A DNA stretch of 64,000 nucleotides. It comes from Halopseudomonas sp. Lineage in GTDB: Bacteria > Pseudomonadota > Gammaproteobacteria > Pseudomonadales > Pseudomonadaceae. Shown piece after piece: positions 37,897 to 50,139 of this stretch. The DNA lies in NCBI RefSeq assembly GCF_038130085.1, contig NZ_JAYPMU010000016.1:12465-76464 (forward strand). The letters run 5' to 3'. The position numbers and the translations under genes were made by a program. Numbering within the stretch: position 1 is the stretch's first letter; every line of letters starts with the position of its first letter. Under the pieces are notes generated by a model. That model searched no databases. It had not been told where the DNA came from and was given only the letters and a program-made list of their open reading frames with translations.

Positions 37897-38916
37897 TCAG
37901 TTGCCGGCAACTTTCTGGTGGGACAGCAGGCCTTGCAGGGTCAGCATCAGCCAATCAAGCAGGAAGCCAATGATGCCGATGGTGATCACCGCCACCATGA
38001 TGCGGCCAAGCGAATCGGAACTGCCGTTCTGGAACTCATCCCAGACGAACTTGCCGAGACCCGGGTTCTGCGCCAGCATCTCGGCGGCGATCAGCACCAT
38101 CCAACCCACCCCGAGCGACAGGCGCAGGCCGGTGAAGATCATCGGCAGCGCCGCAGGGATGGCGATGCGAAACACCTGAGTGCTCCAGTTCAGACGGATT
38201 ACCCGGCCGACGTTGATCCAGTCCTTGTCGATGGAGGCCACCGCCACCGCTGTGTTGATCAGCGTCGGCCACAGCGAGCAGAGCGTTACGGTCACCGCCG
38301 AGGTAATGAACGACTTCTGAAACAACGGATCGTCGGAGATGTACACCGCACTCACCACCATGGTGACAATCGGCAACCAGGCCAGCGGCGACACCGGTTT
38401 GAAAATCTGCACCAGCGGGCTGATCGCGCCATACAGCTTCGGGCTCAGGCCGCAGGCCACACCCACCGGAATGGCAATCAGACTGGCCAGCACAAAGCCG
38501 GTAAACACCGTAAGCAGGCTGGTGCCGATCTGATCAATAAACGTCGGCTTGCCGGTGTAGTCACGAATGCGCACCTCGGCGGTCGGATCGCGTTCCAGTT
38601 TGGCGGCGTTGCGCTCTTCCTGACGCTGGTAAAAAGCATCGGCCTTGGCGCGCTCGGCCTGATGCTCATCGACCAGATTGACCGCCTGCTCCCAGACAGC
38701 AGCCGGACCCGGCAGTACGCCGAGACTGGTTTTGACCTGCGAGGCGCCAACCGACCACACCAGCAGGAACACCAGCAGTGCAATCAGCGGCAGCCCTGCC
38801 TTGTTGAACAGCTCGGTGGCCTGCTCGCGCGCATCCTCGCCGCGACACAGCCGCACCACGGGCACCATCCAGTTGAGCCCGGCGGTTTCCAGATAGTTGA
38901 TCAGCTTGTTGCTCAT
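37897..38916 (-). CDS. nrtB: Nitrate/nitrite-type ABC transporter permease
   Basis: FKPVSPLAWLP, WPTLINTA, LRLSLGVGWMVLIAAEM and GLGKFVWDE. Confidence 0.88.
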   Translation of the reverse strand: MSNKLINYLETAGLNWMVPVVRLCRGEDAREQATELFNKAGLPLIALLVFLLVWSVGASQVKTSLGVLPGPAAVWEQAVNLVDEHQAERAKADAFYQRQEERNAAKLERDPTAEVRIRDYTGKPTFIDQIGTSLLTVFTGFVLASLIAIPVGVACGLSPKLYGAISPLVQIFKPVSPLAWLPIVTMVVSAVYISDDPLFQKSFITSAVTVTLCSLWPTLINTAVAVASIDKDWINVGRVIRLNWSTQVFRIAIPAALPMIFTGLRLSLGVGWMVLIAAEMLAQNPGLGKFVWDEFQNGSSDSLGRIMVAVITIGIIGFLLDWLMLTLQGLLSHQKVAGN

Positions 38917-38976
38917 AGCGTCATACCTCTGCCATCAGGGTGGAAGGGCTCCGACGCCACGCCGGAGCCGCTCGAA

Positions 38977-40359
38977 TTACAGCTGTTCGTCGCCCTTGAG
39001 CCCGATCGCAAACTGTTGCAGATAGGCGTTCGGTTGAGTGCCGTCGTAGGTGACACCGTCGATGAACTCGTTGGTCGGGGCCTTGAAGCCGGTTTCGGTG
39101 GCAAAGTCGGGGAACGCATCAGCCGCCAGCTTGCCCTCGGCGATCAGCTCCTGCGCTGCCTGAGCGTAGATATCCGGGCGGTAGACCTTCTTCGCTACGT
39201 CCATGTACCAGCTGTCCGGCTGGGCTGTGCCGATCTGGCCCCAGCGGCGCATCTGGGTCAGATACCAGATCGCGTCGGAGTAGAACGGGTAGGTCGCGTT
39301 GTAGCGGAAGAACACGTTGAAGTCCGGAACCTCTCGCTTGTCGCCCTTCTCGTACTCAAAGGTGCCGGTCATCGAGTTGGCAATCACCTCGGCGTCAGCG
39401 CCCACGTAGGTCGACTGCGACAGGATCTGCACCGCTTCGGCACGATTGGCGTTGTTGTCCGCATCCAGCCACGCGGCTGCACGGATCAGCGCCTTGACCA
39501 CGGCGATGTGAGTATTGGGGTTCTCATCCGCCCATTTCTGGCTGACGCCGAACACCTTCTCCGGGTTGTTCTTCCAGATTTCGTAGTCAGTGATCACCGG
39601 CACACCGATGCCCTTGAACACCGCTTGCTGGTTCCACGGCTCACCCACGCAATAGCCATTGATGGTGCCGGCTTCCATGGTGGCCGGCATCTGCGGCGGC
39701 GGGGTCACCGAAAGCAACGCATCGGCATTGATCTGGCCCGAGGTGTCGCCGCGGGCCGGTGCGTAGTAGCCGGGGCTGATGCCACCCGCCGCCAGCCAGT
39801 AACGCAGCTCGTAGTTGTGAGTGGAAACCGGGAACACCATGCCCATGTTGAATGGCTTGCCGGCAGCGCGGTATTGCTCGATCACCGGCTTCAGCGCAGC
39901 GGCGCTGATCGGGTGCTGGGGCTTACCGTCGGCATCCAGCGGGATGTGCTTCTTCATCTCTTCCCAGACGTCGTTCGACACGGTGATGCCGTTGCCGTTG
40001 AGGTCCATCGAGAAGGCGGTGATCACATCAGCCTGAGTGCCAAAGCCAATGGTCGCGCCAAGCGGCTGACCGGCCAGCATGTGCGCGCCGTCCAGCTCAC
40101 CGTCGATGACCCGGTCGAGCAGCACCTTCCAGTTGGCTTGCGCCTCAAGGGTGACGTACAGCCCTTCGTCTTCAAAAAAGCCCTTCTCGTAGGCAATCGC
40201 CAGCGGGGCCATGTCGGTCAGTTTGATAAAGCCGAACTTGAGGTCTTCCTTCTCCAGATTCTCGACCGCCTGTACCGCGGTCGACAGTAGACTGCCGAGG
40301 CCCAGCGAAACAGCCAGTGACAGAGTGGCAGCGAGAGACTTGCGCTTGAACGTGTTCAT
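38977..40359 (-). CDS. nrtA: CmpA/NrtA family substrate-binding protein (nitrate/nitrite/cyanate type)
   Basis: [43 protein letters not shown], and NPEKVF (Lys as in NrtA rather than Glu as in CmpA). Confidence 0.88.
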
Positions 40360-40400
40360 AGTCGTGCTCCGTTAAACAATGATCAGTGAGAGGCCGTGGT

Positions 40401-41627
40401 TCAGAAGGCGACCTGCGCCATCAGCCAGAGCTTGTCGGTATCGGTGGCAAATTCGTCGGCGTTGTAACTGGCGTACTTGGCGACCAGGGTGACATCGCCA
40501 AACTTGCGCGCGGCCAGCAGGTCCAGTTCGCTGCCGTAGTCGGCGCCGCCCTTGTCGGCGGAGAAGTCGTGGTAGACCGCCTGCAGCTTGAAGCCGGCGA
40601 GGCTGCCGCCGAGCTGCAGATACATGTCTTCCAAGCCGTTGGCCGGGGTATTGAGGAACTTGTCTGCCCAGCCGTTGAACGCGTGGCCGGTTGCCAGCGG
40701 CGTGCTGAAGGCCGAGTCGTCCGCGCCCAGCAGCTCGTAACCACCGAGCAGCTGCAGCCCACCGACGTTCACACCCAGCTCAGCCAGCCAGTAATCGGCG
40801 CCGATGTTGTTGCCGTCCTCGTAATCGCTCTGGCGTGCGTACTCCAGTGCGTAGCTGAGGCTGGTGCGCTCGCTGAGCTTGGGTGCGCCGGTCAGACGCA
40901 GGCCCAGGGTCTTGTTGGACGCAGCCGGCGCATCCTCCAGATCCAGGAAGTAGCCGTAACCGGTGATCTTGACCAGATCAAAACCGCCGTAGGCCAGGTT
41001 GACGAAATGGGCCTTGGTGTCCAGGTCGCCCTTCGGCGAATCCTCACCGAAGATGCGGTTGACGTTGTAGACATAGGCATAGTTGAGGGTGGTGTCGGCC
41101 AGACTGCTGTTGCTCAGGCTGAAGCCATCGTAGGTCTGTTCGTTCTGACGCCAGCCGACGTTGCCGATAAAACGGGCGTTGTCGTAGATGATGCGCTGAC
41201 GGCCAAACTTCAGGGTGGTGGCGTCCAGCCCGGCATAGCTCAGCCAGGCCTGGTTGATCTCGGTGCCTTCCGGGTCGGCGACGACCGGATACTGGGTCTT
41301 CGCGCTCGGCAGGCCGGTGGCGTTGTTGTAACGCTCGCTGCCAATGACGGTGACATCATCTGCTTCGACGAAGGCGCCAAAGCCGCGATACGGCGCAGTC
41401 GCAAAGTTGATGCGGGTGCGCAGAGTGGAGGCACCGGCGCTCTTGTCGATGCCATCCTGATCCACATATTCATAACGGTAACGCAGGTCCAGCCCCGCCT
41501 TGCCACCGGTTACCGCCTCACTGATGGAGCCCGCCTCGGCCAACACCAGACTGCTGCCCATCGCCAGCACGGCCCCCATCAGCCATGCCCCAGTTACCCC
41601 TGCCCGCAGTTTCATTTGCTCGCTCAT
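40401..41627 (-). CDS. Outer membrane beta-barrel, alginate export (AlgE)-like family
   Basis: Signal peptide, LDLRYRYEYVD, KFGRQRI..DNARFIGNVGWRQNEQTYDG, TPLATGHAFNGWADKF, and C-terminal Phe; start at MSEQMK (41627). Confidence 0.82.
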   Translation of the reverse strand: MSEQMKLRAGVTGAWLMGAVLAMGSSLVLAEAGSISEAVTGGKAGLDLRYRYEYVDQDGIDKSAGASTLRTRINFATAPYRGFGAFVEADDVTVIGSERYNNATGLPSAKTQYPVVADPEGTEINQAWLSYAGLDATTLKFGRQRIIYDNARFIGNVGWRQNEQTYDGFSLSNSSLADTTLNYAYVYNVNRIFGEDSPKGDLDTKAHFVNLAYGGFDLVKITGYGYFLDLEDAPAASNKTLGLRLTGAPKLSERTSLSYALEYARQSDYEDGNNIGADYWLAELGVNVGGLQLLGGYELLGADDSAFSTPLATGHAFNGWADKFLNTPANGLEDMYLQLGGSLAGFKLQAVYHDFSADKGGADYGSELDLLAARKFGDVTLVAKYASYNADEFATDTDKLWLMAQVAF

Positions 41628-41654
41628 GCACACCCCTCCCCAAAAAACGCGCAC

Positions 41655-41749
41655 AAAAAAAGGCGTCCACAAACACCGCTGCTGCTGCAGGAGTGTTGGT
41701 GGACGCCTTTGCCCGATAAATCTGTGTGGTCGGAGTTCCCGCCATTGGG
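41655..41749 (-). promoter_or_regulatory. ANTAR (NasT/NasR-type) dual-hairpin antitermination leader with overlapping terminator
   Basis: P1 is CCC-AAUGGC-GGG (41738-41749) and P2 is GGGC-AAAGGC-GUCC (41701-41714), both hexaloops with A1/G4. P2 overlaps the 5' arm of the terminator GGCGUCCAC...GUGGACGCC-U7 (41655-41710). Confidence 0.85.
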
Positions 41750-41771
41750 ATGCCCGACACTGAGGGCAGAG

Positions 41772-41787
41772 AGCAAGCCCTGTGCCA
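41772..41787 (-). promoter_or_regulatory. sigma54 promoter for the porin-nrt operon
   Basis: Minus strand reads TGGCAC-AGGGC-TTGCT, a perfect -24/-12 consensus. Confidence 0.88.
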
Positions 41788-41853
41788 GATTTCATAACCT
41801 ACTGATTCAATGCAAAAAACCTATTCCAGAGCAATTCTGGTTCAGGGCAAAAG

Positions 41854-41901
41854 TGCATTTGCACAGTGCATTGATCAAAAAATGCGCACTGGCGCTGTGC
41901 G
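41854..41901. promoter_or_regulatory. Tandem NtrC-like enhancer sites
   Basis: TGCATTTGCACAGTGCA (41854-41870) and CGCACTGGCGCTGTGCG (41885-41901) have centres 31 bp apart and lie about 100-135 bp upstream of the sigma54 start. Confidence 0.6.
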
Positions 41902-41981
41902 ATTTTTCATCACGTTGCCGCAGGCGGCCGGCACCGAAAACATCGCGGGAAAAATGCCGGAGGCGTAACGCACTGGCATCG

Positions 41982-41998
41982 CGCACCAAAAAGGAGCA
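41982..41998. promoter_or_regulatory. NtrC-like site upstream of the guanidine operon
   Basis: CGCACCAAAAAGGAGCA. Confidence 0.5.
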
Positions 41999-42081
41999 AT
42001 GCACTACAAGCAGGCACCCCTGTCCGCGCACCGTCATGGAGCCAAAACCTCAACGCCCGTATTCCGCGGTTTTGCCCATTC

Positions 42082-42097
42082 TGGTCTGCATATTGCT
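42082..42097 (+). promoter_or_regulatory. Probable sigma54 promoter for the guanidine operon
   Basis: TGGTCT-GCATA-TTGCT, with GG and GC at the canonical spacing. Confidence 0.6.
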
Positions 42098-42147
42098 TTG
42101 CACTGAGTGTTCGCACTCCGCACTACCGCGCAACACACAATTTGCAA

Positions 42148-42246
42148 ATAGAGCGCTAGGGTTCCGGCCGCTGTAGCGGTGACTGGTCCGAGAGCACTCG
42201 ACCTTTCAGATAAAGGTTACACGGCGGGATAAAAGCCCGGGAGACG
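42148..42246 (+). ncRNA. Guanidine-I riboswitch (ykkC-yxkD subtype 1)
   Basis: GCGCTAGGGTTCCGG...GACTGGTCCGAGAGC...ACACGGCGGGATAAAAGCCCGGGAG matches the hallmark conserved segments, and it sits upstream of a urea/guanidine carboxylase operon. Confidence 0.95.
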
Positions 42247-42298
42247 ATTGGCAACACTGCCAGGAGTGCTCCACGTGACATTGACTGAGAGGTTCCCG

Positions 42299-43342
42299 AT
42301 GAAAAGATTCCCCGCCCTGCTGCTCAGCTCCCTGCTGCTGTCGTCCGCCGCCCAGGCGCAAGATAGCTTCAAGGTCTGCTGGTCGATCTACGCCGGCTGG
42401 ATGCCCTGGGCCTACGGTGCCGAAAGCGGCATCGTCAAGAAGTGGGCCGACAAGTACGACATCGCCATTGATGTGGTGCAGATCAACGATTACATCGAGT
42501 CGATCAACCAATACACAGCGGGTGAGTTCGACGCCTGCACCATGACCAACATGGATGCGCTGACCATCCCGGCCGCTGGCGGCGTCGACAGCACTGCACT
42601 GATCGTCGGCGACTTCTCCAACGGCAATGACGGCATCGTGCTCAAGGGCGAAAGCGAACTGGCCGCCATCAAAGGCCAGAACGTCAACCTGGTCGAGCTG
42701 AGCGTGTCCCACTATCTGCTGGCCCGCGCGCTGGACTCGGTGGGCCTGAGCGAAGCCGATGTGCAGGTGGTCAACACCTCGGACGCCGACATGGTCGCCG
42801 TCTACGGCACCGACGACGTCACCTCGGTCGCGACCTGGAATCCGCTGCTGAGCGAAATCAGCCAGCAACCGAACAGCACGGTGGTGTTCGACTCGGCGCA
42901 GATTCCGGGCGAGATCATCGACCTGCTGGTGATCAACACCGACACCCTCAGCGCCCACCCGGAACTGGGCAAGGCCCTGACCGGCGCCTGGTACGAAATC
43001 ATGGCGACCATGAGCAGCGACAGCGAGCAAGGCGTTGCCGCGCGCAGCTACATGGCCGAGGCCTCCGGCACCGATCTGGACGGTTATGAAGCCCAGTTGG
43101 CCGCAACCAAGATGTTCTACACCCCGGCCGCGGCGCTGGAGCTGACCAACAGCGTGCAACTCACGCAAACCATGCAGTACGTGGCGGAGTTTTCCTTCGA
43201 CCACGGCCTGCTCGGCGACGGCGCGCCGGATGCCGGTTTTATCGGCGTGCAGATGCCCGCCGGCGACTACGGCGACAGCAGCAACCTGAAGCTGCGCTTT
43301 GACCCGACCTACATGCAGATGGCTGCTGACGGCCAGCTCTGA
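42299..43342 (+). CDS. Urea-carboxylase-associated ABC substrate-binding protein (putative guanidine-binding)
   Basis: FKVCWSIYAGWMPW, NDYIESINQY, MTNMDALTIPAAGGVD, DFSNGNDG and LSVSHYLL; start at MKRFPA. Confidence 0.9.
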   Translation: MKRFPALLLSSLLLSSAAQAQDSFKVCWSIYAGWMPWAYGAESGIVKKWADKYDIAIDVVQINDYIESINQYTAGEFDACTMTNMDALTIPAAGGVDSTALIVGDFSNGNDGIVLKGESELAAIKGQNVNLVELSVSHYLLARALDSVGLSEADVQVVNTSDADMVAVYGTDDVTSVATWNPLLSEISQQPNSTVVFDSAQIPGEIIDLLVINTDTLSAHPELGKALTGAWYEIMATMSSDSEQGVAARSYMAEASGTDLDGYEAQLAATKMFYTPAAALELTNSVQLTQTMQYVAEFSFDHGLLGDGAPDAGFIGVQMPAGDYGDSSNLKLRFDPTYMQMAADGQL

Positions 43343-43387
43343 GCCCTGAACCAGACCGGGCGCGAACGGGCGCCCAGCGGGATGCAT

Positions 43388-44206
43388 ATGAAGCGACTGA
43401 TCAACCTCACACCGCCACCGGCCAGCAAACTGTTTCTCGGGCTGCTGCCGTTCGCCCTGCTGCTCCTGCTCTACGTAGTAGCCTCGGACGCGCGGCTGGC
43501 CGAGAACGCCAACGACAAGCTGCTGCCCGCCTTCAGCCAGATGGGCGAAGCCATCGACCGGATGGCGTTGGAGCCGAGCAAACGCACCGGTGAGTACCTG
43601 TTCTGGCAGGACACCGCCAGCAGCCTCAAGCGCCTCGGCCTGGGCGTGCTGATCGCTGCGGCCATTGGTCTGGCGCTGGGGCTGTTTACCGGCGCACTGC
43701 CGCTGGTGCACGCCGGTGTCAGCCCGCTGCTGACGGTGGTGTCGCTGATACCACCGCTGGCGATTCTGCCGGTGCTGTTCATTCTGTTCGGCCTCGGTGA
43801 AGCCTCCAAGGTGATCCTGATCGCCATCGGTATTACCCCGTTTATCGCCCGTGATCTGCAGCGCCGCACCCAGGAAATCCCCAGCGAGCAACTGGTCAAG
43901 GCGCAGACCCTCGGTGCCAACACCAGCCAGATCATGGTCCGCGTGCTGCTGCCGCAGCTGATGCCGAAACTGATCGACGCGGTGCGTCTGTCGCTCGGTG
44001 CCGGCTGGCTGTTCCTGATCGCCGCCGAAGCCATCGCCGCCACCGATGGCCTCGGTTACCGGATCTTTCTGGTCCGCCGCTATATGTCGATGGACGTGAT
44101 CCTGCCGTATGTCGCCTGGATCACCCTGCTGGCCTTCCTGTTCGACTGGCTGCTGGCGACCCTGTCGCGCCGCCTGTTCCCGTGGAATGCCCAAGGAGCC
44201 CACTGA
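43388..44206 (+). CDS. ABC transporter permease (guanidine operon)
   Basis: IPPLAILPVLFILFGLGEASKV, KAQTLGA and WLFLIAAEAIA. Confidence 0.9.
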   Translation: MKRLINLTPPPASKLFLGLLPFALLLLLYVVASDARLAENANDKLLPAFSQMGEAIDRMALEPSKRTGEYLFWQDTASSLKRLGLGVLIAAAIGLALGLFTGALPLVHAGVSPLLTVVSLIPPLAILPVLFILFGLGEASKVILIAIGITPFIARDLQRRTQEIPSEQLVKAQTLGANTSQIMVRVLLPQLMPKLIDAVRLSLGAGWLFLIAAEAIAATDGLGYRIFLVRRYMSMDVILPYVAWITLLAFLFDWLLATLSRRLFPWNAQGAH

Positions 44207-44988
44207 TGATCGAAGTAAAGAACGTCGGCAAGAGCTACGACGGTAACCCGGTGCTCGAACGCCTGAACGTCACCGTCAAGGAAGGCGAGTTCGTCACCCT
44301 GGTCGGCGCCTCCGGCTGCGGCAAGAGCACCTTCCTGAAAATGCTGCTGGGCACCGAGTCCCCAACCAGCGGCGAGCTGCTGCTCGACGGCAAGCCGATT
44401 GCTTCGGAACCCGGCCCAGACCGCGGCATCGTCTTCCAGCAGTATTCGGTTTTCCCGCACATGACCGTGCTGGAGAACGTCATGGCGGCGGTCGGCTTTG
44501 CACAGCGCGGGCTGACCGGCTACCTGTTCGGCAGCAAGCGCAAGCAGGCCCGCCTTGATGCCGAAGCCATCCTCACCGAAGTCGGCCTTGGCCACGCGCT
44601 GAAGAAGTACCCGCACGAGCTGTCTGGCGGGATGAAGCAGCGTCTGGCGATTGCCCAGGCGCTGCTCGGCAAGCCGCGCATTCTGCTGCTGGATGAGCCC
44701 TTTGGCGCACTCGACCCAGGTATCCGCGCCGACATGCACGAACTGGTGCTGCGCCTCTGGCAGGAACACAAGCTGACCATCTTTATGGTCACTCACGATA
44801 TCAAGGAAGGCTTCCACCTCGGCACCCGCTTGTGGGTGTTCGACAAGCTGCGCCACGACCCGCACGCACCGCAAGCCTATGGCGCCACCATCACCTACGA
44901 CCTGCCGATCGACCATAGCGCCCGGCAGCCAGCGCCGCAGAACACCGAACAAACCATTGCCCCGCTGCTGGCCGAAGCCGCCAGCTGA
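44206..44988 (+). CDS. ABC transporter ATP-binding protein (guanidine operon)
   Basis: GASGCGKST, LSGGMKQR and LDEPFGALD; the start overlaps the permease stop (TGATG). Confidence 0.92.
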   Translation: MIEVKNVGKSYDGNPVLERLNVTVKEGEFVTLVGASGCGKSTFLKMLLGTESPTSGELLLDGKPIASEPGPDRGIVFQQYSVFPHMTVLENVMAAVGFAQRGLTGYLFGSKRKQARLDAEAILTEVGLGHALKKYPHELSGGMKQRLAIAQALLGKPRILLLDEPFGALDPGIRADMHELVLRLWQEHKLTIFMVTHDIKEGFHLGTRLWVFDKLRHDPHAPQAYGATITYDLPIDHSARQPAPQNTEQTIAPLLAEAAS

Positions 44989-45014: not shown

Positions 45015-45731
45015 ATGACTCTGAAGACCTACACCACTGAAATCGCCGGCGCCAGCCACTGGTCCCTGCGCGTGCGCAAGGGCACCCTGATGCGCCTGAC
45101 CGATCTGGCCGGTAATGCCAACGTCGGCATGCTGTTCTACAACCCGGAAAACCTGCTGGAGCGTTACAACGCGCCAGACACCCTCAAGTGCCAACACACC
45201 TTCAAGCTGACCCGCGGCAATTGCCTGTATTCCGACATGGGCCGCATCTTCGCCTCCATCGTTGAAGACGATCTGGGCTGGCACGAAAGCGTCTGTGGCA
45301 ACAGCAACGCCGCTCAGGTAGCCGAGCGCTGGGGCGCACGCGACTACCAGAACGCCCGCAATGAATGGCACCAGAACGGCTACGACGCCTTTCTGGTCGA
45401 GCTGGCCAAGTACGGTCTGGGCCGCGCCGACATGGCCGCCAACCTGAACCTGTTCAGCAAGGTCGCCACCGATGACGAAGGCCGTATGCAACTGGTTTCC
45501 GGCCACAGCAAGGCCGGCAGCCAGGTCGCCCTGCGCTTCGAGATGGACACCTTGGTCGTGCTGCACACCTGCCCGCACCCGCTCAGCAGCGCCGACAGCT
45601 ACCCCTACAACCCGGTCCGCATCGAGCTGAGCCAGGCCGCGCCGGTCAGCGATGACGACTTCTGCCGCAACTTCCGCCCGGAAAACCAGCGCGGCTTCCA
45701 GAACAACGCCCTGTACCACCTGGGCAAGTAA
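45015..45731 (+). CDS. cgdA: Carboxyguanidine deiminase subunit A (urea amidolyase-associated protein, DUF1989)
   Basis: [29 protein letters not shown] and HTCPHPL. Confidence 0.88.
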
Positions 45732-45742
45732 GCGAGGACACC

Positions 45743-46384
45743 ATGATCAAGCACAGCTCCCGCCTCCCCGAACAGGCCCTCTCCCGCACCACCATCGGCG
45801 CTGGCGATTACTACATCGGCATCGTCAAGGCCGGCCAGACCATGCGCCTGCTCGACCTGGAAGGCAATCAGGCCGCCGACACCCTGTTCTTCAGCGCCGC
45901 CAATCCGGTCGAGCGCTACAGCGCCACCGACACCATCCGCGAGCAGGGCAACGTCTACCTGACCGCCGGCTCGGTGATTCGCTCGAACGAAAACAACCCG
46001 ATGCTGGAAATCGTCGCCGATACCTGCGGCCGTCACGACACGCTGGGCGGTGCCTGCGCCAGCGAAAGCAACACCGTGCGCTACGACCTGGAAAAGCGCT
46101 GCATGCACTCGTGCCGAGACAGCTGGATGCTGGCCGTGGCCGAGAACCCGCAATACGGCATCAGCAAGCGCGACATCACCCACAACATCAACTTCTTTAT
46201 GAACGTGCCGGTGACCGCCGAAGGCGGCCTGACCTTTGAGGACGGCATCTCCGGCGCCGGCAAGTACGTCGAGCTGACCGCGCTGACGGACGTGGTGATC
46301 CTGATCTCCAACTGCCCGCAGCTGAACAACCCGTGCAACGGCTATAACCCGACGCCGGTTGAATTACTGGTCTGGTCTGAGTAA
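45743..46384 (+). CDS. cgdB: Carboxyguanidine deiminase subunit B (DUF1989)
   Basis: [31 protein letters not shown] and [17 protein letters not shown]. Confidence 0.9.
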
Positions 46385-46409
46385 CCCGTACAACGAGACA
46401 TCACAGCTT

Positions 46410-46456
46410 CAGTGGACGGCCACTGTCGTAAACAAAGCAGCCTGGGACGGCCCGGC
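46410..46456 (+). ncRNA. Guanidine-II riboswitch (mini-ykkC)
   Basis: Two hairpins, each with an ACGR tetraloop closed by G-C: CAGUGG-ACGG-CCACUG (46410-46425) and GCC(U)GGG-ACGG-CCCGGC (46440-46456). They are joined by a 14-nt A-rich linker and end 13 nt before the uca ATG. Confidence 0.88.
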
Positions 46457-46469
46457 AAAGGCTAGCGAC

Positions 46470-49400
46470 ATGTTCAACAAGGTTCTGATCGCCAACCGTG
46501 GCGCCATCGCCACCCGCATCATCCGCACCCTGCGCAACCTGGGTATCGGCTCAGTCGCCGTCTACGCCGAATGCGACGCCGACAGCCTGCACGTACGGCT
46601 CGCTGACGAGGCCTACAGCCTCGGCGAAGGCGCCGCTGCCGACACCTATCTGCAGGTCGACAAACTGCTGGCCATCGCCGCCGACACCGGCGCCCAGGCC
46701 ATCCACCCCGGTTACGGCTTCCTCAGTGAGAACGCCAACTTCGTGCGCCGCTGCGAGGCCGCTGGGGTCGCCTTTATCGGCCCGACGCCCGAGCAAATGC
46801 TGGCCTTCGGTCTCAAGCACCGCGCCCGCGAGTTGGCAGAACAAGCCAATGTGCCGCTGCTGCCGGGCACCGATCTGTTGACCGATCTGGCGGCAGCCAA
46901 GGCAGAAGCCGCGCGTATCGGCTATCCGGTCATGCTCAAGAGCACCGCCGGTGGCGGCGGTATCGGCATGCAGCTGTGTCACAGCGAAGACGAACTGACC
47001 GGTGCCTTCGACAGCGTCAAGCGCCTTGGCGCCAGCAACTTTGCCGACGACGGCGTGTTCCTGGAGAAATTCATCGCCCGCGCCCGCCATATCGAGGTGC
47101 AGGTGTTTGCCGACGGCAAGGGCAACGCGCTGGCACTCGGTGAGCGCGACTGCTCCAGCCAGCGCCGCAATCAGAAAGTGGTGGAAGAATGCCCGGCACC
47201 GAACCTGAGCGACGCGGTCCGCAGCGAGCTGCACGCCACTGCTGAAAAGCTGCTGTCCAGCGTCAGCTACCGCAACGCCGGTACCGTCGAGTTCATTTAC
47301 GACGCCGACAGTCACCAGTTCTACTTCCTTGAAGTTAACACCCGCCTGCAGGTTGAGCACGGCGTGACCGAAGAGGTGTTCGGCGTTGATCTGGTCGAGT
47401 GGATGGTACGTCTGGCCGCCGGCGAGGAGCTGGAACTGAACGCGCGCCGCGCCAGCCTCGTGCCCAAGGGCCATTCCATTCAGGTGCGTCTGTACGCCGA
47501 AGACCCGTTCCGCGACTTTCAGCCCTGTGCAGGCCTGCTCAGCGAAGCGGCTTTCCCCTCCGGTGACGGCATCCGCATTGACCACTGGATCGAATCCGGG
47601 CTGGAAGTACCGCCCTACTTCGACCCGATGCTGGCCAAGGTGATTGTCCACGCGGAGGACCGCGCCGCTGCGCTGACCAAGCTGCAGGACACCCTGGACG
47701 CCACCCGCCTGTACGGCAGCGAAACCAACCTCGACTACCTGCGTGCGCTGACCCGCGACCCGGCGCTGCTGGCTGGCGAGGTCACCACTCGCTACCTCAA
47801 CAGCTTCCGCTTCCAGCCGGCGCGCATCGACGTGCTGGCTGGCGGCACCCAGACCACCATTCAGGACTTTCCGGGCCGCACCGGCAGCTGGGATGTTGGC
47901 GTGCCGCCGTCCGGCCCCTTCGACAGCTACGCCTTCCGCCTTGGCAACCGCCTGCTGAACAACCCGGCCGACACGGCGGGGCTGGAAATCACCCTGCAAG
48001 GCCCAACCCTGCGTTTTGCCAGCGCCAGCCAGATCGTGCTGAGCGGCGCTGCGATTGACGCCAAGCTGGATGACCAGCCGATTGCCTCCTGGCAGGTGAT
48101 TGATATTGCCGCAGGGCAAACCCTGACCCTTGGCCGCATCAAGGACGCCGGTGCCCGAGCCTATCTGGCAGTGCTCGGCGGTCTGCAATGCCCGGATTAT
48201 CTCGGTTCCAAATCCACCTTCACCCTCGGTCAGTTCGGCGGCCACAACGGCCGCGCGCTGCGCACCGGTGACGTGCTGCACCTGAGCGCAGGCGTCAGCC
48301 CGGTTGCGCCTGCTGAGGTACCCAGCGCGCTGCGCCCGGCGATCAGCAACCAGTGGGAGCTGCGGGTGATCTACGGCCCGCATGGCGCGCCGGACTTTTT
48401 CACCGGCAAGGACATCGACAGCTTTTTCGCCACCGACTGGGAGATTCACTACAACTCAAGCCGCACGGGCGTGCGTCTCATAGGCCCGAAACCGGAATGG
48501 GCACGCAAGGACGGCGGCGAAGCCGGCCTGCACCCGTCCAACATTCACGACAACGCTTACGCCTTCGGCACCGTCGATTTCACCGGCGACATGCCGGTGA
48601 TCCTCGGCCCGGACGGCCCGTCGCTCGGTGGTTTTGTCTGCCCGGCCACCGTCATCACCGCCGACCTGTGGAAGCTCGGCCAGCTGCGCGCCGGCGACAA
48701 AGTGCGCTTTGTACCGGTCAGCATTGAGCAGGCGGTTGCGCTGGAGGCGGCGCAGATCGAACAGATCGATGCACTGACCTCCAAGCCGGTCGAATGGCAG
48801 CCGGTGGCGGTCGACAGCCCCATTCTAAAGCGTCTGCCCGCCGAGCAGTTCGGTGACGAGATCGTCTACCGCGCCGCCGGTGACCACTTCCTGCTGGTCG
48901 AATACGGCGAGCAGATGCTGGATATCCGCCTGCGTTTCCGCGCCCACGCGCTGATGCAGTGGCTGCAGCAAAACCCGGTGGCCGGCCTGCGTGAGCTGAC
49001 CCCGGGCATCCGCTCGCTGCAGGTGCATTTCGACAGCCAGCAATTGAGCCATGACGCGCTGCTCGAGCATCTGTTCAAGGCCGAACAGGCACTGTCGGAA
49101 CGCCTGAACGAACTGGCCGTACCCTCGCGCATCGTGCACATCCCGCTGTCGTGGGACGACAAGGCCTGCCAGCTGGCGATCGAAAAATACACCCAGTCGG
49201 TGCGCAAGAACGCGCCCTGGTGCCCAAGTAATCTGGAGTTCATCCGCCGCATCAACGGGCTGGACAGCATCGACGACGTCAAGAAGGTGCTGTTCGAGGC
49301 GTCCTATCTGGTCATGGGCCTCGGCGACGTCTACCTCGGTGCGCCGGTGGCCACGCCGACCGACCCACGCCACCGTCTGGTGACCACCAAGTACAACCCG

Positions 49401-50084
49401 GCGCGCACCTGGACCGCCGAAAACTCGGTCGGCATCGGCGGCTCCTACCTCTGCGTCTACGGCATGGAAGGGCCCGGCGGTTATCAGTTCGTCGGTCGCA
49501 CCCTGCAGATGTGGAACCGCTATCGCCAGACCCGCGAGTTCAGCAAGCCATGGCTGCTGCGCTTCTTTGATCAGATCCGCTTTTATGAGGTCAGCCACGA
49601 GGAGCTGCAGCAGATTCGCCGCGACTTCCCGCAGGGCCGCTATCCGCTGCGCATCGAGGAAAGCCAGTTCAGCCTCGCCGAGCACGAAGCCTTCATTAAC
49701 GACAACGCCGACGACATCGAAGCCTTCAAGCAGCAGCGCAACGCGGCCTTCGCCGAAGAACTCCGCCAGTGGCACGCCAACGGCCAGTTCAACTTCGAGA
49801 GCGAAGAGCTGGAGAGTAACGATGAGGATGTCAGCTGGCCGGAGGACAGCGTCGGTGTCGACAGCCCGGTATCCGGCAGTCTGTGGCAGGCCGAGGTCAA
49901 GGTCGGCGATACGGTCAAGGCCGGCCAAACCCTGCTGATTCTCGAATCGATGAAGATGGAAATCCCGCTGCAGGCGCCGTGCGATGGCGTGGTGACCCAT
50001 GTATTGCAGCAGCCCGGTGGCCGCGTGCAGGCCGGTCAGCCGCTGGTAGTGCTGCGCGACGAGGCACTGGAACCGGTCGCCTGA
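46470..50084 (+). CDS. uca: Urea/guanidine carboxylase (biotin carboxylase, carboxyltransferase, BCCP)
   Basis: KVLIANRGAIA, HPGYGFLSEN, EVNTRLQVEH, HPSNIHDNAY..G.VDFTGD, PSLGGFVCP, KYNPARTWT and ESMKME; start at MFNKVL. Confidence 0.95.
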   Translation: MFNKVLIANRGAIATRIIRTLRNLGIGSVAVYAECDADSLHVRLADEAYSLGEGAAADTYLQVDKLLAIAADTGAQAIHPGYGFLSENANFVRRCEAAGVAFIGPTPEQMLAFGLKHRARELAEQANVPLLPGTDLLTDLAAAKAEAARIGYPVMLKSTAGGGGIGMQLCHSEDELTGAFDSVKRLGASNFADDGVFLEKFIARARHIEVQVFADGKGNALALGERDCSSQRRNQKVVEECPAPNLSDAVRSELHATAEKLLSSVSYRNAGTVEFIYDADSHQFYFLEVNTRLQVEHGVTEEVFGVDLVEWMVRLAAGEELELNARRASLVPKGHSIQVRLYAEDPFRDFQPCAGLLSEAAFPSGDGIRIDHWIESGLEVPPYFDPMLAKVIVHAEDRAAALTKLQDTLDATRLYGSETNLDYLRALTRDPALLAGEVTTRYLNSFRFQPARIDVLAGGTQTTIQDFPGRTGSWDVGVPPSGPFDSYAFRLGNRLLNNPADTAGLEITLQGPTLRFASASQIVLSGAAIDAKLDDQPIASWQVIDIAAGQTLTLGRIKDAGARAYLAVLGGLQCPDYLGSKSTFTLGQFGGHNGRALRTGDVLHLSAGVSPVAPAEVPSALRPAISNQWELRVIYGPHGAPDFFTGKDIDSFFATDWEIHYNSSRTGVRLIGPKPEWARKDGGEAGLHPSNIHDNAYAFGTVDFTGDMPVILGPDGPSLGGFVCPATVITADLWKLGQLRAGDKVRFVPVSIEQAVALEAAQIEQIDALTSKPVEWQPVAVDSPILKRLPAEQFGDEIVYRAAGDHFLLVEYGEQMLDIRLRFRAHALMQWLQQNPVAGLRELTPGIRSLQVHFDSQQLSHDALLEHLFKAEQALSERLNELAVPSRIVHIPLSWDDKACQLAIEKYTQSVRKNAPWCPSNLEFIRRINGLDSIDDVKKVLFEASYLVMGLGDVYLGAPVATPTDPRHRLVTTKYNPARTWTAENSVGIGGSYLCVYGMEGPGGYQFVGRTLQMWNRYRQTREFSKPWLLRFFDQIRFYEVSHEELQQIRRDFPQGRYPLRIEESQFSLAEHEAFINDNADDIEAFKQQRNAAFAEELRQWHANGQFNFESEELESNDEDVSWPEDSVGVDSPVSGSLWQAEVKVGDTVKAGQTLLILESMKMEIPLQAPCDGVVTHVLQQPGGRVQAGQPLVVLRDEALEPVA

Positions 50085-50097
50085 GGCAGAAAAAAAC

Positions 50098-50139
50098 AGA
50101 CGCTACCTGATGCTTTAAAAGCATCAGGTAGCGTCTTTT
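50098..50139. terminator. Long perfect inverted repeat / terminator after uca
   Basis: AGACGCTACCTGATGCTTT-A-AAAGCATCAGGTAGCGTCT, 19-bp arms followed by TTT. Confidence 0.75.

What the first reader, a model, noticed from the sequence alone, without database searches (positions are those of the whole stretch)
46385..46470. Second, different guanidine riboswitch (class II) inside the same operon, gating the carboxylase
Seen: two G-ACGG-C capped hairpins with a 14-nt linker in the 85-bp cgdB-uca gap. AGCCU (46439-46443) can alternatively pair with AGGCU (46459-46463), which covers the putative SD (AAGG) just before the ATG at 46470, giving a plausible translational OFF state. Established: guanidine-II RNAs dimerise their ACGR loops on ligand binding and generally respond at higher concentration than class I. 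Inference: one transcript is controlled by two structurally unrelated sensors for the same ligand. Class I would turn on import and deiminase first, and class II would license the costly 1,200-aa biotin/ATP-dependent enzyme only at higher guanidine. This is a staged, two-threshold circuit layered on NtrC control.
Basis: partly seen in the sequence, partly recalled or inferred. Interest (0 to 1): 0.72.

Follow-up and report, generated by a model that had tools for sequence, protein, structure and literature searches.

The report
Known internal guanidine-II riboswitch before carboxylase
The two small hairpins between cgdB and the carboxylase gene are a genuine guanidine-II riboswitch, but a guanidine-I leader plus an internal guanidine-II switch in this operon is a common layout already published and tested biochemically, so the find is real but ordinary.

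Summary
Observation confirmed. Window 46410-46425 and 46442-46455 are two G-ACGG-C-capped hairpins. They lie in the 85-nt gap between cgdB (stop 46384) and the guanidine ("urea") carboxylase ATG (46470). Rfam Guanidine-II scores 22.7 bits, below its cut-off of 32. It is still the only hit in the 3.7-Mb genome. All 20 relatives tested carry a hit at the same spot (22.5-48.3 bits, 8 above cut-off). 88 of 100 cgdB-carboxylase gaps hold the motif, and the stems covary strongly. A guanidine-I aptamer (93.4 bits) heads the operon.

The layout is not new. Reiss & Strobel 2017, citing Sherlock 2017, say class-I operons often contain a class-II switch before the carboxylase gene. Sinn 2025 probed exactly this pair in Vreelandella boliviensis: KD 44 uM for class I and 93 uM for class II. 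In my survey 57 of 78 species loci have both.

It shows no comparative support beyond background. The staged two-threshold circuit is untested, and a two-fold KD gap in a relative argues against a large separation. The class-I platform here has no terminator and looks translational too. A sigma-54-type promoter upstream is real and conserved.

The parts
42082..42097 (+). Sigma-54-type promoter-like site, TGGTCTGCATATTGCT (GG and GC at the consensus -24/-12 spacing)
   Evidence: Read. The same TGG-N8-TTGCW type lies 76-135 nt upstream of the guanidine-I core in 30 of 64 related loci, against 41 of 3091 background 200-nt windows.
42145..42245 (+). Guanidine-I riboswitch aptamer (RF00442)
   Evidence: 93.4 bits against a gathering score of 63, E 1.3e-15, full model.
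42285..42294 (+). Shine-Dalgarno region (GAGAGG, 42287-42292) of the binding-protein gene. It is predicted to pair with GACCUUUCAG (42200-42209), the 5' strand of an aptamer helix. This looks like a translational expression platform with no terminator.
   Evidence: MFE fold. No terminator-like site between 42245 and the ATG at 42299. Most related loci also lack a T-run there.
42299..43342 (+). ABC importer substrate-binding protein (TIGR03427 'putative urea ABC transporter SBP', i.e. the guanidine importer SBP)
   Evidence: 554 bits against a cut-off of 333.9. ATG and signal peptide read.
43382..44988 (+). ABC permease (43382-44206) and ATPase (about 44182-44988)
   Evidence: Pfam BPD_transp_1 and ABC_tran.
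45015..46384 (+). cgdA (45015-45731) and cgdB (45743-46384), the two DUF1989 carboxyguanidine deiminase subunits
   Evidence: Pfam DUF1989 at 2e-61 and 1e-64. TIGR03425 and TIGR03424 above cut-off.
46410..46425 (+). Guanidine-II hairpin P1: CAGUGG-ACGG-CCACUG
   Evidence: Covariation in orthologues, helix 1 94.7% paired with 5 of 6 pairs changing on both sides.
46426..46441 (+). Linker UCGUAAACAAAGCAGC. It holds two candidate anti-RBS segments. U46424-U46429 (the first two bases are the 3' end of P1) can pair with 46465-46470. G46437-U46443 (the last two bases are the 5' start of P2) can pair with 46459-46466.
   Evidence: Duplex energies of -8.3 and -10.5 kcal/mol. Structure energies.
46442..46455 (+). 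Guanidine-II hairpin P2: CUGGG-ACGG-CCCGG
   Evidence: Helix 2 88% paired with 4 of 6 pairs changing on both sides.
46458..46472 (+). Ribosome-binding site of the carboxylase gene: AAGG (46458-46461), spacer, ATG (46470-46472)
   Evidence: P2 ends 14 nt before the ATG. In 84 of 88 orthologous elements that distance is 10-24 nt.
46470..50084 (+). Guanidine carboxylase (annotated type 'urea carboxylase', 1204 aa)
   Evidence: TIGR02712 at 1869 bits against a cut-off of 1304. Pfam biotin carboxylase, CT_A_B, CT_C_D and biotinyl domains.
50098..50136 (.). 18-bp perfect hairpin with T-runs on both strands: a bidirectional terminator that ends the operon

Best explanation
Window 46408-46455 is a genuine guanidine-II (mini-ykkC) riboswitch. 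It acts as a guanidine-dependent ON switch for translation initiation of the guanidine carboxylase gene at 46470.

Shown: two ACGG-capped hairpins with family-typical spacing, placed 14 nt before the start codon. Their position is orthologous to above-threshold guanidine-II elements, and the stems are maintained by compensatory changes.

Inferred from published structures of the family: two guanidinium ions bind where the two ACGR loops kiss head to head.

Inferred for this sequence: without ligand, the RBS region (46459-46470) pairs with the linker and the foot of P2 (GCAGCCU:AGGCU-A-GC), or with the foot of P1 (UGUCGU:GCGACA). With ligand, the collinear P1-P2 dimer locks both stems and stretches the linker, which frees the RBS.

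The element belongs to a standard gammaproteobacterial operon: sigma-54-type promoter, guanidine-I riboswitch, ABC importer, cgdAB, guanidine-II riboswitch, carboxylase.

Its most likely role is to carry guanidine dependence to a distal cistron that an 85-nt untranslated gap uncouples from upstream translation. The class I element here also appears to work on translation of the first cistron only.
For: The motif is present as described. Chance expectation is 0.01 per window.

RF01068 gives the only hit in a 261-nt local scan (22.7 bits, E 0.01). It is also the only hit in the genome (E 0.034).

All 20 relatives L002-L021 carry an RF01068 hit at the same cgdB-carboxylase junction. Scores form a continuous series from 22.5 to 48.3 bits, and 8 are above the cut-off of 32.

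88 of 100 cgdB-carboxylase gaps in relatives hold two ACGR hairpins. On 75 distinct sequences, 91.3% of cells pair against 70.2% in shuffles. The covariation score is 0.542 against 0.154 (0 of 500 shuffles reach it), and it is 0.05-0.11 when partners are slid by one column.

The gene context is the guanidine carboxylase pathway under a 93-bit guanidine-I aptamer.

Energies: P1+P2 alone is -14.7 kcal/mol, and the RBS-masking alternative is -20.0 kcal/mol. The masking fold is part of the MFE of the isolated leader.

Literature: the same layout is reported as frequent (PMC5558903). In-line probing showed guanidine binding by the orthologous internal element of Vreelandella boliviensis (PMC12508155). 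The linker-stretching and anti-SD separation model is from PMC5558903 and PMC5486947.

The class I platform has no terminator, and its SD is paired to an aptamer strand.
Against: The Rfam score is below the curated gathering score.

The whole intergenic region is no more stable than shuffles (z +0.45). This is normal for so small a motif, but it gives no support.

Neither masking helix is proven. The SD-versus-P2-foot pairing shows no locus-specific complementarity (native -5.56 against mismatched -5.44 kcal/mol, 549 of 2000 permutations). SD pairing probability is 0.372 for native tails against 0.380 for swapped tails.

The linker-versus-tail pairing has only weak support, and that test is not corrected for relatedness (85 of 5000 permutations).

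Enforcing P1+P2 leaves G46461-U46463 paired to a second AGC.

There are no RNA data for this organism and no binding or expression data for this sequence.
Confidence: 0.9

Rival explanations
1. Class I, with higher affinity, turns on importer and deiminase at low guanidine. Class II, with lower affinity and cooperative binding, licenses the costly carboxylase only at higher guanidine.
For: Both sensors sit in one operon with no terminator or sigma-70-like promoter between them. In V. boliviensis the class II KD (93 uM) is higher than the class I KD (44 uM). Class II binds two ligands cooperatively (PMC7266159).
Against: The measured gap is only about two-fold. Making the deiminase before the carboxylase that supplies its substrate has no obvious benefit. 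Class I here seems to gate translation of the first cistron rather than transcription, so there is no simple first-on, second-on order on one transcript. The authors who measured both stress different specificity, not different thresholds. Nothing in the sequence gives an affinity.
Confidence: 0.15
2. The second sensor widens ligand specificity rather than setting a threshold. Class II also responds to methylguanidine, so the carboxylase arm responds to a broader set of guanidino compounds than the class I-gated importer arm.
For: In V. boliviensis the internal class II element binds guanidine and methylguanidine equally (93 and 83 uM). Class I rejects methylguanidine.
Against: This window lacks the mgdH/mgdL methylguanidine genes of the Vreelandella operon. 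After the carboxylase comes a terminator and then an amino-acid carrier. The carboxylase substrate is guanidine, so sensing methylguanidine would serve little purpose here.
Confidence: 0.15
3. The element acts mainly through Rho-dependent termination or mRNA decay of the untranslated 3.6-kb carboxylase cistron. SD masking would be only the trigger.
For: An untranslated long cistron after an 85-nt gap is a classic Rho substrate. Sinn 2025 note that translational and mRNA-level control are linked in riboswitches.
Against: There is no direct evidence and no RNA data. This reading adds to the best explanation rather than replacing it.
Confidence: 0.2
4. The two hairpins are a chance look-alike or another palindromic element (terminator or REP-like repeat) with no ligand sensing.
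For: The Rfam score is sub-threshold. The fold is not unusually stable.
Against: Chance expectation is 0.01 per window. It is the single genome-wide hit. There is no T-run. Position and loops are conserved, with compensatory stem changes, across about 88 loci from many genera.
Confidence: 0.02

Closest known systems
Guanidine carboxylase operon of Vreelandella boliviensis (Sinn et al. 2025, Nat Commun, PMC12508155)
   Same: Guanidine-I in the 5' UTR, ABC importer, cgdA and cgdB, and guanidine-II in the cgdB-gca intergenic region. Both RNAs were shown to bind guanidine by in-line probing.
   Different: The Vreelandella operon carries mgdH, mgdL and atzF after gca. Here the operon ends at a terminator right after the carboxylase, and atzF lies on another contig. 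That class I was presumed to act through a terminator. Here no terminator is present.
[quoted passage not shown] 2021, as summarised in PMC12186494)
   Same: Importer and carboxyguanidine deiminase under guanidine-I. The carboxylase lies immediately downstream under guanidine-II.
   Different: Those operons include allophanate hydrolase behind the carboxylase, and this one does not. The primary paper was not available to me, so details were not compared.
General statement of Sherlock et al. 2017 as cited by Reiss & Strobel 2017 (PMC5558903)
   Same: [quoted passage not shown] This is the very arrangement reported in the finding.
   Different: Here, and in most of 55 related loci, the class I platform has no terminator-like T-run. 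Here its SD is predicted to pair with an aptamer strand, so both levels would be translational.
Pseudomonas aeruginosa guanidine-II switching model (Reiss & Strobel 2017)
   Same: The SD is masked by linker and stem-foot nucleotides. Head-to-head P1-P2 dimerisation separates SD and anti-SD. The window offers analogous linker-RBS complementarity.
   Different: The partner segments differ. Here they are the 3' end of the linker with the P2 foot, or the P1 3' foot. In P. aeruginosa they are the linker and the 5' end of P1. None of this has been tested for this sequence.

Membership tests
Guanidine-II riboswitch (mini-ykkC, Rfam RF01068) | Two hairpins, each capped by an ACGR tetraloop closed by G-C pairs | tested here: met
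   GG-ACGG-CC in both hairpins. GGACGRCC is invariant or nearly invariant in 75 orthologous sequences.
Guanidine-II riboswitch (mini-ykkC, Rfam RF01068) | Short linker of variable sequence between the hairpins | tested here: met
   16 nt, or 14 nt with the extended P2. Orthologues have 9-24 nt with one outlier of 59, and no sequence is conserved across all of them. The Rfam consensus linker is 14 nt.
Guanidine-II riboswitch (mini-ykkC, Rfam RF01068) | Match to the family covariance model. The gathering score of 32 bits is an operational cut-off, not a biological definition. | tested here: inconclusive
   22.7 bits, below 32. It is still the only hit in the genome (E 0.034). Elements at the orthologous position in 20 relatives score 22.5-48.3 bits in a continuous series, and 8 are above the cut-off. 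The loss of score comes from an A/U-containing P1 stem (CAGUGG) and unpaired outer positions (alignment).
Guanidine-II riboswitch (mini-ykkC, Rfam RF01068) | Stems maintained by compensatory substitutions | tested here: met
   9 of 12 pairs change on both sides. The covariation score is 0.542 against 0.154 in shuffles (0 of 500 reach it) and at most 0.19 when partners are slid. Caveat: the three loop-proximal pairs were required when the hairpins were picked, but the outer pairs were not.
Guanidine-II riboswitch (mini-ykkC, Rfam RF01068) | Sits next to the ribosome-binding site of a guanidine-related gene (carboxylase or exporter) | tested here: met
   P2 ends 14 nt before the ATG of a TIGR02712 carboxylase.
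Guanidine-II riboswitch (mini-ykkC, Rfam RF01068) | Cooperative binding of guanidinium through loop-loop dimerisation | not testable with these tools
   Needs in-line probing or a structure. It has been shown for family members and for the orthologous V. boliviensis element.
Dual guanidine-I / guanidine-II guanidine carboxylase operon | Guanidine-I aptamer in the leader of importer and cgdAB | tested here: met
   RF00442 at 93.4 bits, 42145-42245. It is followed by SBP, permease, ATPase and two DUF1989 genes.
Dual guanidine-I / guanidine-II guanidine carboxylase operon | Guanidine-II between cgdB and the carboxylase gene | tested here: met
   57 of 78 species loci surveyed carry both elements.
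Dual guanidine-I / guanidine-II guanidine carboxylase operon | Allophanate hydrolase in the same operon after the carboxylase (present in the described examples) | tested here: not met
   A terminator lies at 50098-50136 and an amino-acid carrier gene follows. The only above-cut-off allophanate hydrolase is on contig C1, with no riboswitch nearby. This is a difference in gene content, not in the riboswitch layout.
Dual guanidine-I / guanidine-II guanidine carboxylase operon | Class I acts on transcription through an intrinsic terminator (as presumed in the literature) | tested here: not met
   No terminator-like site between aptamer and ATG. The SD is predicted to pair with an aptamer strand. 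Only 8 of 55 related loci show a T-run there, several of them within the start of the coding sequence.

The most novel reading that the evidence does not exclude
The two structurally unrelated guanidine sensors of this operon are both translational. They differ enough in threshold, cooperativity or ligand range to give a staged response under a nitrogen-regulated sigma-54 promoter: importer and deiminase first, then the costly carboxylase only at higher or more sustained guanidine. This would be a three-layer circuit that has not been dissected in any organism.
Probability: 0.12. Interest if true: 0.45.

Novelty: already known. Interest (0 to 1): 0.14.

Why it matters
It matters little for discovery. 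The dual class I / class II control of guanidine carboxylase operons has been reported since 2017, and both RNAs of an orthologous operon have been probed. The practical value is for annotation. In this clade (Halopseudomonas and many marine Gammaproteobacteria) the internal guanidine-II element carries an A/U-containing P1 and scores 22-28 bits, below Rfam's cut-off. Standard pipelines therefore miss it: 12 of the 20 relatives tested are below the cut-off. The open biological question of why two sensors for one ligand sit in one operon remains, but it is already posed in the literature.

Tried and rejected
1. Default Rfam scan: the element is not listed. It needed a local E-value scan.

2. 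Whole-gap MFE and z-score: not informative (z +0.45).

4. Broader test of P1 3' strand plus linker against the tail: weakly positive (85 of 5000) but not corrected for relatedness, so I do not rely on it.

5. Enforcing P1+P2 in a secondary-structure model: this does not clearly free the SD, because a second AGC in the linker can still pair with GCU. Kissing-loop tertiary effects cannot be modelled with these tools.

6. RNA-seq support for co-transcription: only DNA and metagenome runs hold the sequence.

7. Primary papers Sherlock 2017, Breaker 2017 and Sinn 2021 are not held. Their content is cited second-hand through PMC5558903 and PMC12186494.

8. My first sigma-54 pattern had the wrong spacing and found nothing. 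It was corrected.

9. Chance look-alike, terminator or REP element: rejected.
Full report
**What is there.**
The cgdB ORF ends with TAA at 46382-46384, and the 1204-aa carboxylase ORF starts with ATG at 46470, leaving an 85-nt gap. The gap holds CAGUGG-ACGG-CCACUG (46410-46425) and CUGGG-ACGG-CCCGG (46442-46455). Counted from the 5-bp P2, the linker is 16 nt. AGCCU (46439-46443) is the exact complement of AGGCU (46459-46463). AAGG (46458-46461) lies 8 nt before the ATG. The description is accurate.

**More than chance.**
- This is the only pair of G-ACGR-C-capped hairpins (4 bp or more) 5-40 nt apart on either strand of the window.
- Composition-matched shuffles give 0.01 such pairs per window.
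- Rfam's Guanidine-II model (RF01068) does not report the element at its gathering score.
- In a local scan it is the only family matched: 22.7 bits against a cut-off of 32, E 0.01, full-length 1-48.
- In the whole 3.7-Mb genome it is the only hit at E up to 1 (E 0.034).

**Context.**
- A guanidine-I aptamer (RF00442, 93.4 bits) lies at 42145-42245.
- It is followed by a TIGR03427 binding protein, a permease and an ATPase.
- Next come two DUF1989 proteins (TIGR03425 and TIGR03424, the CgdA/CgdB carboxyguanidine deiminase pair).
- After the gap comes a TIGR02712 'urea carboxylase', i.e. guanidine carboxylase.
- No terminator-like or sigma-70-like site lies between the two riboswitches.
- An 18-bp hairpin with T-runs at 50098-50136 ends the unit.
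- The closest named relatives of cgdB (97% identity) are Halopseudomonas oceani and H. pachastrellae.

**Comparative evidence.**
- A DNA search of 40 related genomes gave 22 loci with cgdB next to the carboxylase gene. 21 of these 22 loci (counting the window's own, L001) keep two ACGR hairpins just before the carboxylase start.
- A protein-seeded scan added 80 species loci from many gammaproteobacterial genera and one alphaproteobacterium.
- Overall, 88 of 100 cgdB-carboxylase gaps carry the motif. Linkers are 9-24 nt with one outlier. In 84 of 88, the 3' end of P2 lies 10-24 nt before the ATG.
- The 12 gaps without the motif are short: 6-47 nt, plus one of 82 nt.
- On 75 distinct sequences, 91.3% of stem cells pair against 70.2% in shuffles.
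- 9 of 12 pairs change on both sides. The covariation score is 0.542 against 0.154 (0 of 500 shuffles reach it). It is 0.02-0.19 when partners are slid by one to three columns.
- The three loop-proximal pairs were required by my picking rule. The outer pairs were not, and they still pair in most sequences with many compensatory types.
- Rfam scoring of 20 relatives gave an RF01068 hit at the orthologous position in every one, from 22.5 to 48.3 bits, with 8 above the cut-off.

The window's element is therefore the low-scoring end of a continuous orthologous series. Its low score comes from an A/U-containing P1 and unpaired outer positions.

**How it probably works.**
Published structures show that the two ACGR loops dimerise head to head and create two guanidinium pockets. 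The stems become collinear and the linker has to stretch along them (PMC5486947; PMC5558903). For P. aeruginosa the proposed OFF state pairs the SD with linker and stem-foot nucleotides.

In the window the RBS tail has two complementary partners:
- GCAGCCU (46437-46443) with AGGCU-A-GC (46459-46466).
- UGUCGU (46424-46429, overlapping the last two P1 pairs) with GCGACA (46465-46470, reaching the A of the ATG), at -8.3 kcal/mol.

Evaluated on the 71-nt leader:
- P1+P2 alone is -14.7 kcal/mol.
- P1 plus the extended reader helix is -20.0 kcal/mol, and that helix is part of the MFE.
- The P1-foot alternative is -16.2 to -18.3 kcal/mol.

An OFF state that needs a few kcal/mol of ligand-dependent stabilisation to be displaced is thus plausible. 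It is not demonstrated:
- Forcing P1+P2 still leaves G46461-U46463 paired to a second AGC.
- Across loci, neither SD-core pairing (0.372 native against 0.380 with swapped tails) nor P2-foot/SD complementarity (549 of 2000 permutations) exceeds background.
- Linker/tail complementarity is only weakly above background (85 of 5000, not corrected for relatedness).

**Comparison with what is known.**
- Reiss & Strobel 2017 state, citing Sherlock et al. [quoted passage not shown]
- A 2025 review describes the same layout in Raoultella, Erwinia and Klebsiella.
- Sinn et al. 2025 describe the Vreelandella boliviensis operon with guanidine-I in the 5' UTR and guanidine-II 'between cgdB and gca'. They measured apparent KDs of 44 uM (class I) and 93 uM guanidine / 83 uM methylguanidine (class II).
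- My survey agrees that the layout is the rule. Of 78 species loci with cgdB next to the carboxylase gene, 57 have both elements, 10 have class II only (7 of these have truncated upstream DNA), 7 have class I only and 4 have neither. The class I count uses a strict pattern, so it is a lower bound.

**The staged-threshold idea.**
Sequence cannot give affinities. The only measured pair differs about two-fold, and its authors point to different specificity and level of action as the open question. The class I platform here also has no terminator. Its SD (GAGAGG, 42287-42292) is predicted to pair with GACCUUUCAG (42200-42209) of the aptamer. Most related loci likewise lack a T-run there. If class I gates translation of the first cistron, a separate sensor before a distal cistron isolated by an 85-nt gap is a simpler rationale than staging. 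This is my inference and is not tested.

**The 'NtrC' layer.**
TGGTCTGCATATTGCT (42082-42097) fits the sigma-54 -24/-12 spacing. The same type of site lies 76-135 nt upstream of the class I core in 30 of 64 related loci, against 1.3% of background windows. A sigma-54 promoter is therefore supported. The activator was not identified.

**Verdict.**
- The identification as a guanidine-II riboswitch inside a guanidine-I operon is supported with high confidence.
- The arrangement is already known and has been characterised biochemically in an orthologous operon.
- The two-threshold circuit remains speculation, with weak prior support.
- Interest is low. The main practical point is that Rfam's cut-off misses this clade's variant.

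Noticed in passing
window 42082-42097: A sigma-54-type promoter (TGGTCTGCATATTGCT) lies about 50 nt before the guanidine-I aptamer. GCAC-rich repeats further upstream (41850-42050) could be enhancer-binding sites. The promoter type is conserved in 30 of 64 related loci, against 1.3% of background windows.
   Followed up: partly
window 42200-42209 with 42285-42294: The guanidine-I element has no intrinsic terminator. The SD of the binding-protein gene is predicted to pair with the 5' strand of an aptamer helix, which suggests translational rather than transcriptional control.
   Followed up: partly
own genome contig C1 176152-177819 (L115 8012-9838): Allophanate hydrolase, the last enzyme of the pathway, is not in the operon. 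It sits on another contig with no guanidine riboswitch nearby, next to a GntR/FCD regulator gene. How its expression is matched to the riboswitch-controlled steps is unclear.
   Followed up: partly
own genome contig C10 12169-12273 (L117 1501-1605): A second guanidine-I riboswitch (85.3 bits) lies directly upstream of a 352-aa NMT1-type ABC substrate-binding protein. This may be a second guanidine-responsive uptake system.
   Followed up: partly
window 46408-46430 and 24 related loci: P1 with its flanks (UUCAGYGGACGRCCRCUGUCGUA) is nearly invariant in 24 of 88 loci from many genera. The rest of the gap and the P2 foot vary. Base pairing alone does not require this, and the cause is unexplained.
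   Followed up: partly
L013, L014, L017 (relatives), cgdB-carboxylase gap: Some relatives in the same genus have gaps of 150-180 nt. Extra sequence rich in GCTTCAAGC / GCAGCTTGC repeats is inserted upstream of the guanidine-II element, and it looks like a small repeat element.
   Followed up: no
window 50098-50136: An 18-bp perfect hairpin with T-runs on both strands lies between the carboxylase gene and the amino-acid carrier gene. It looks like a strong bidirectional terminator.
   Followed up: no
window 37897-41795 (- strand): Divergent from the guanidine operon lies a porin-like gene followed by an NMT1/SsuA-like binding protein and a nitrate-type ABC permease. This is a second nitrogen-related import cluster sharing the intergenic control region.
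   Followed up: no
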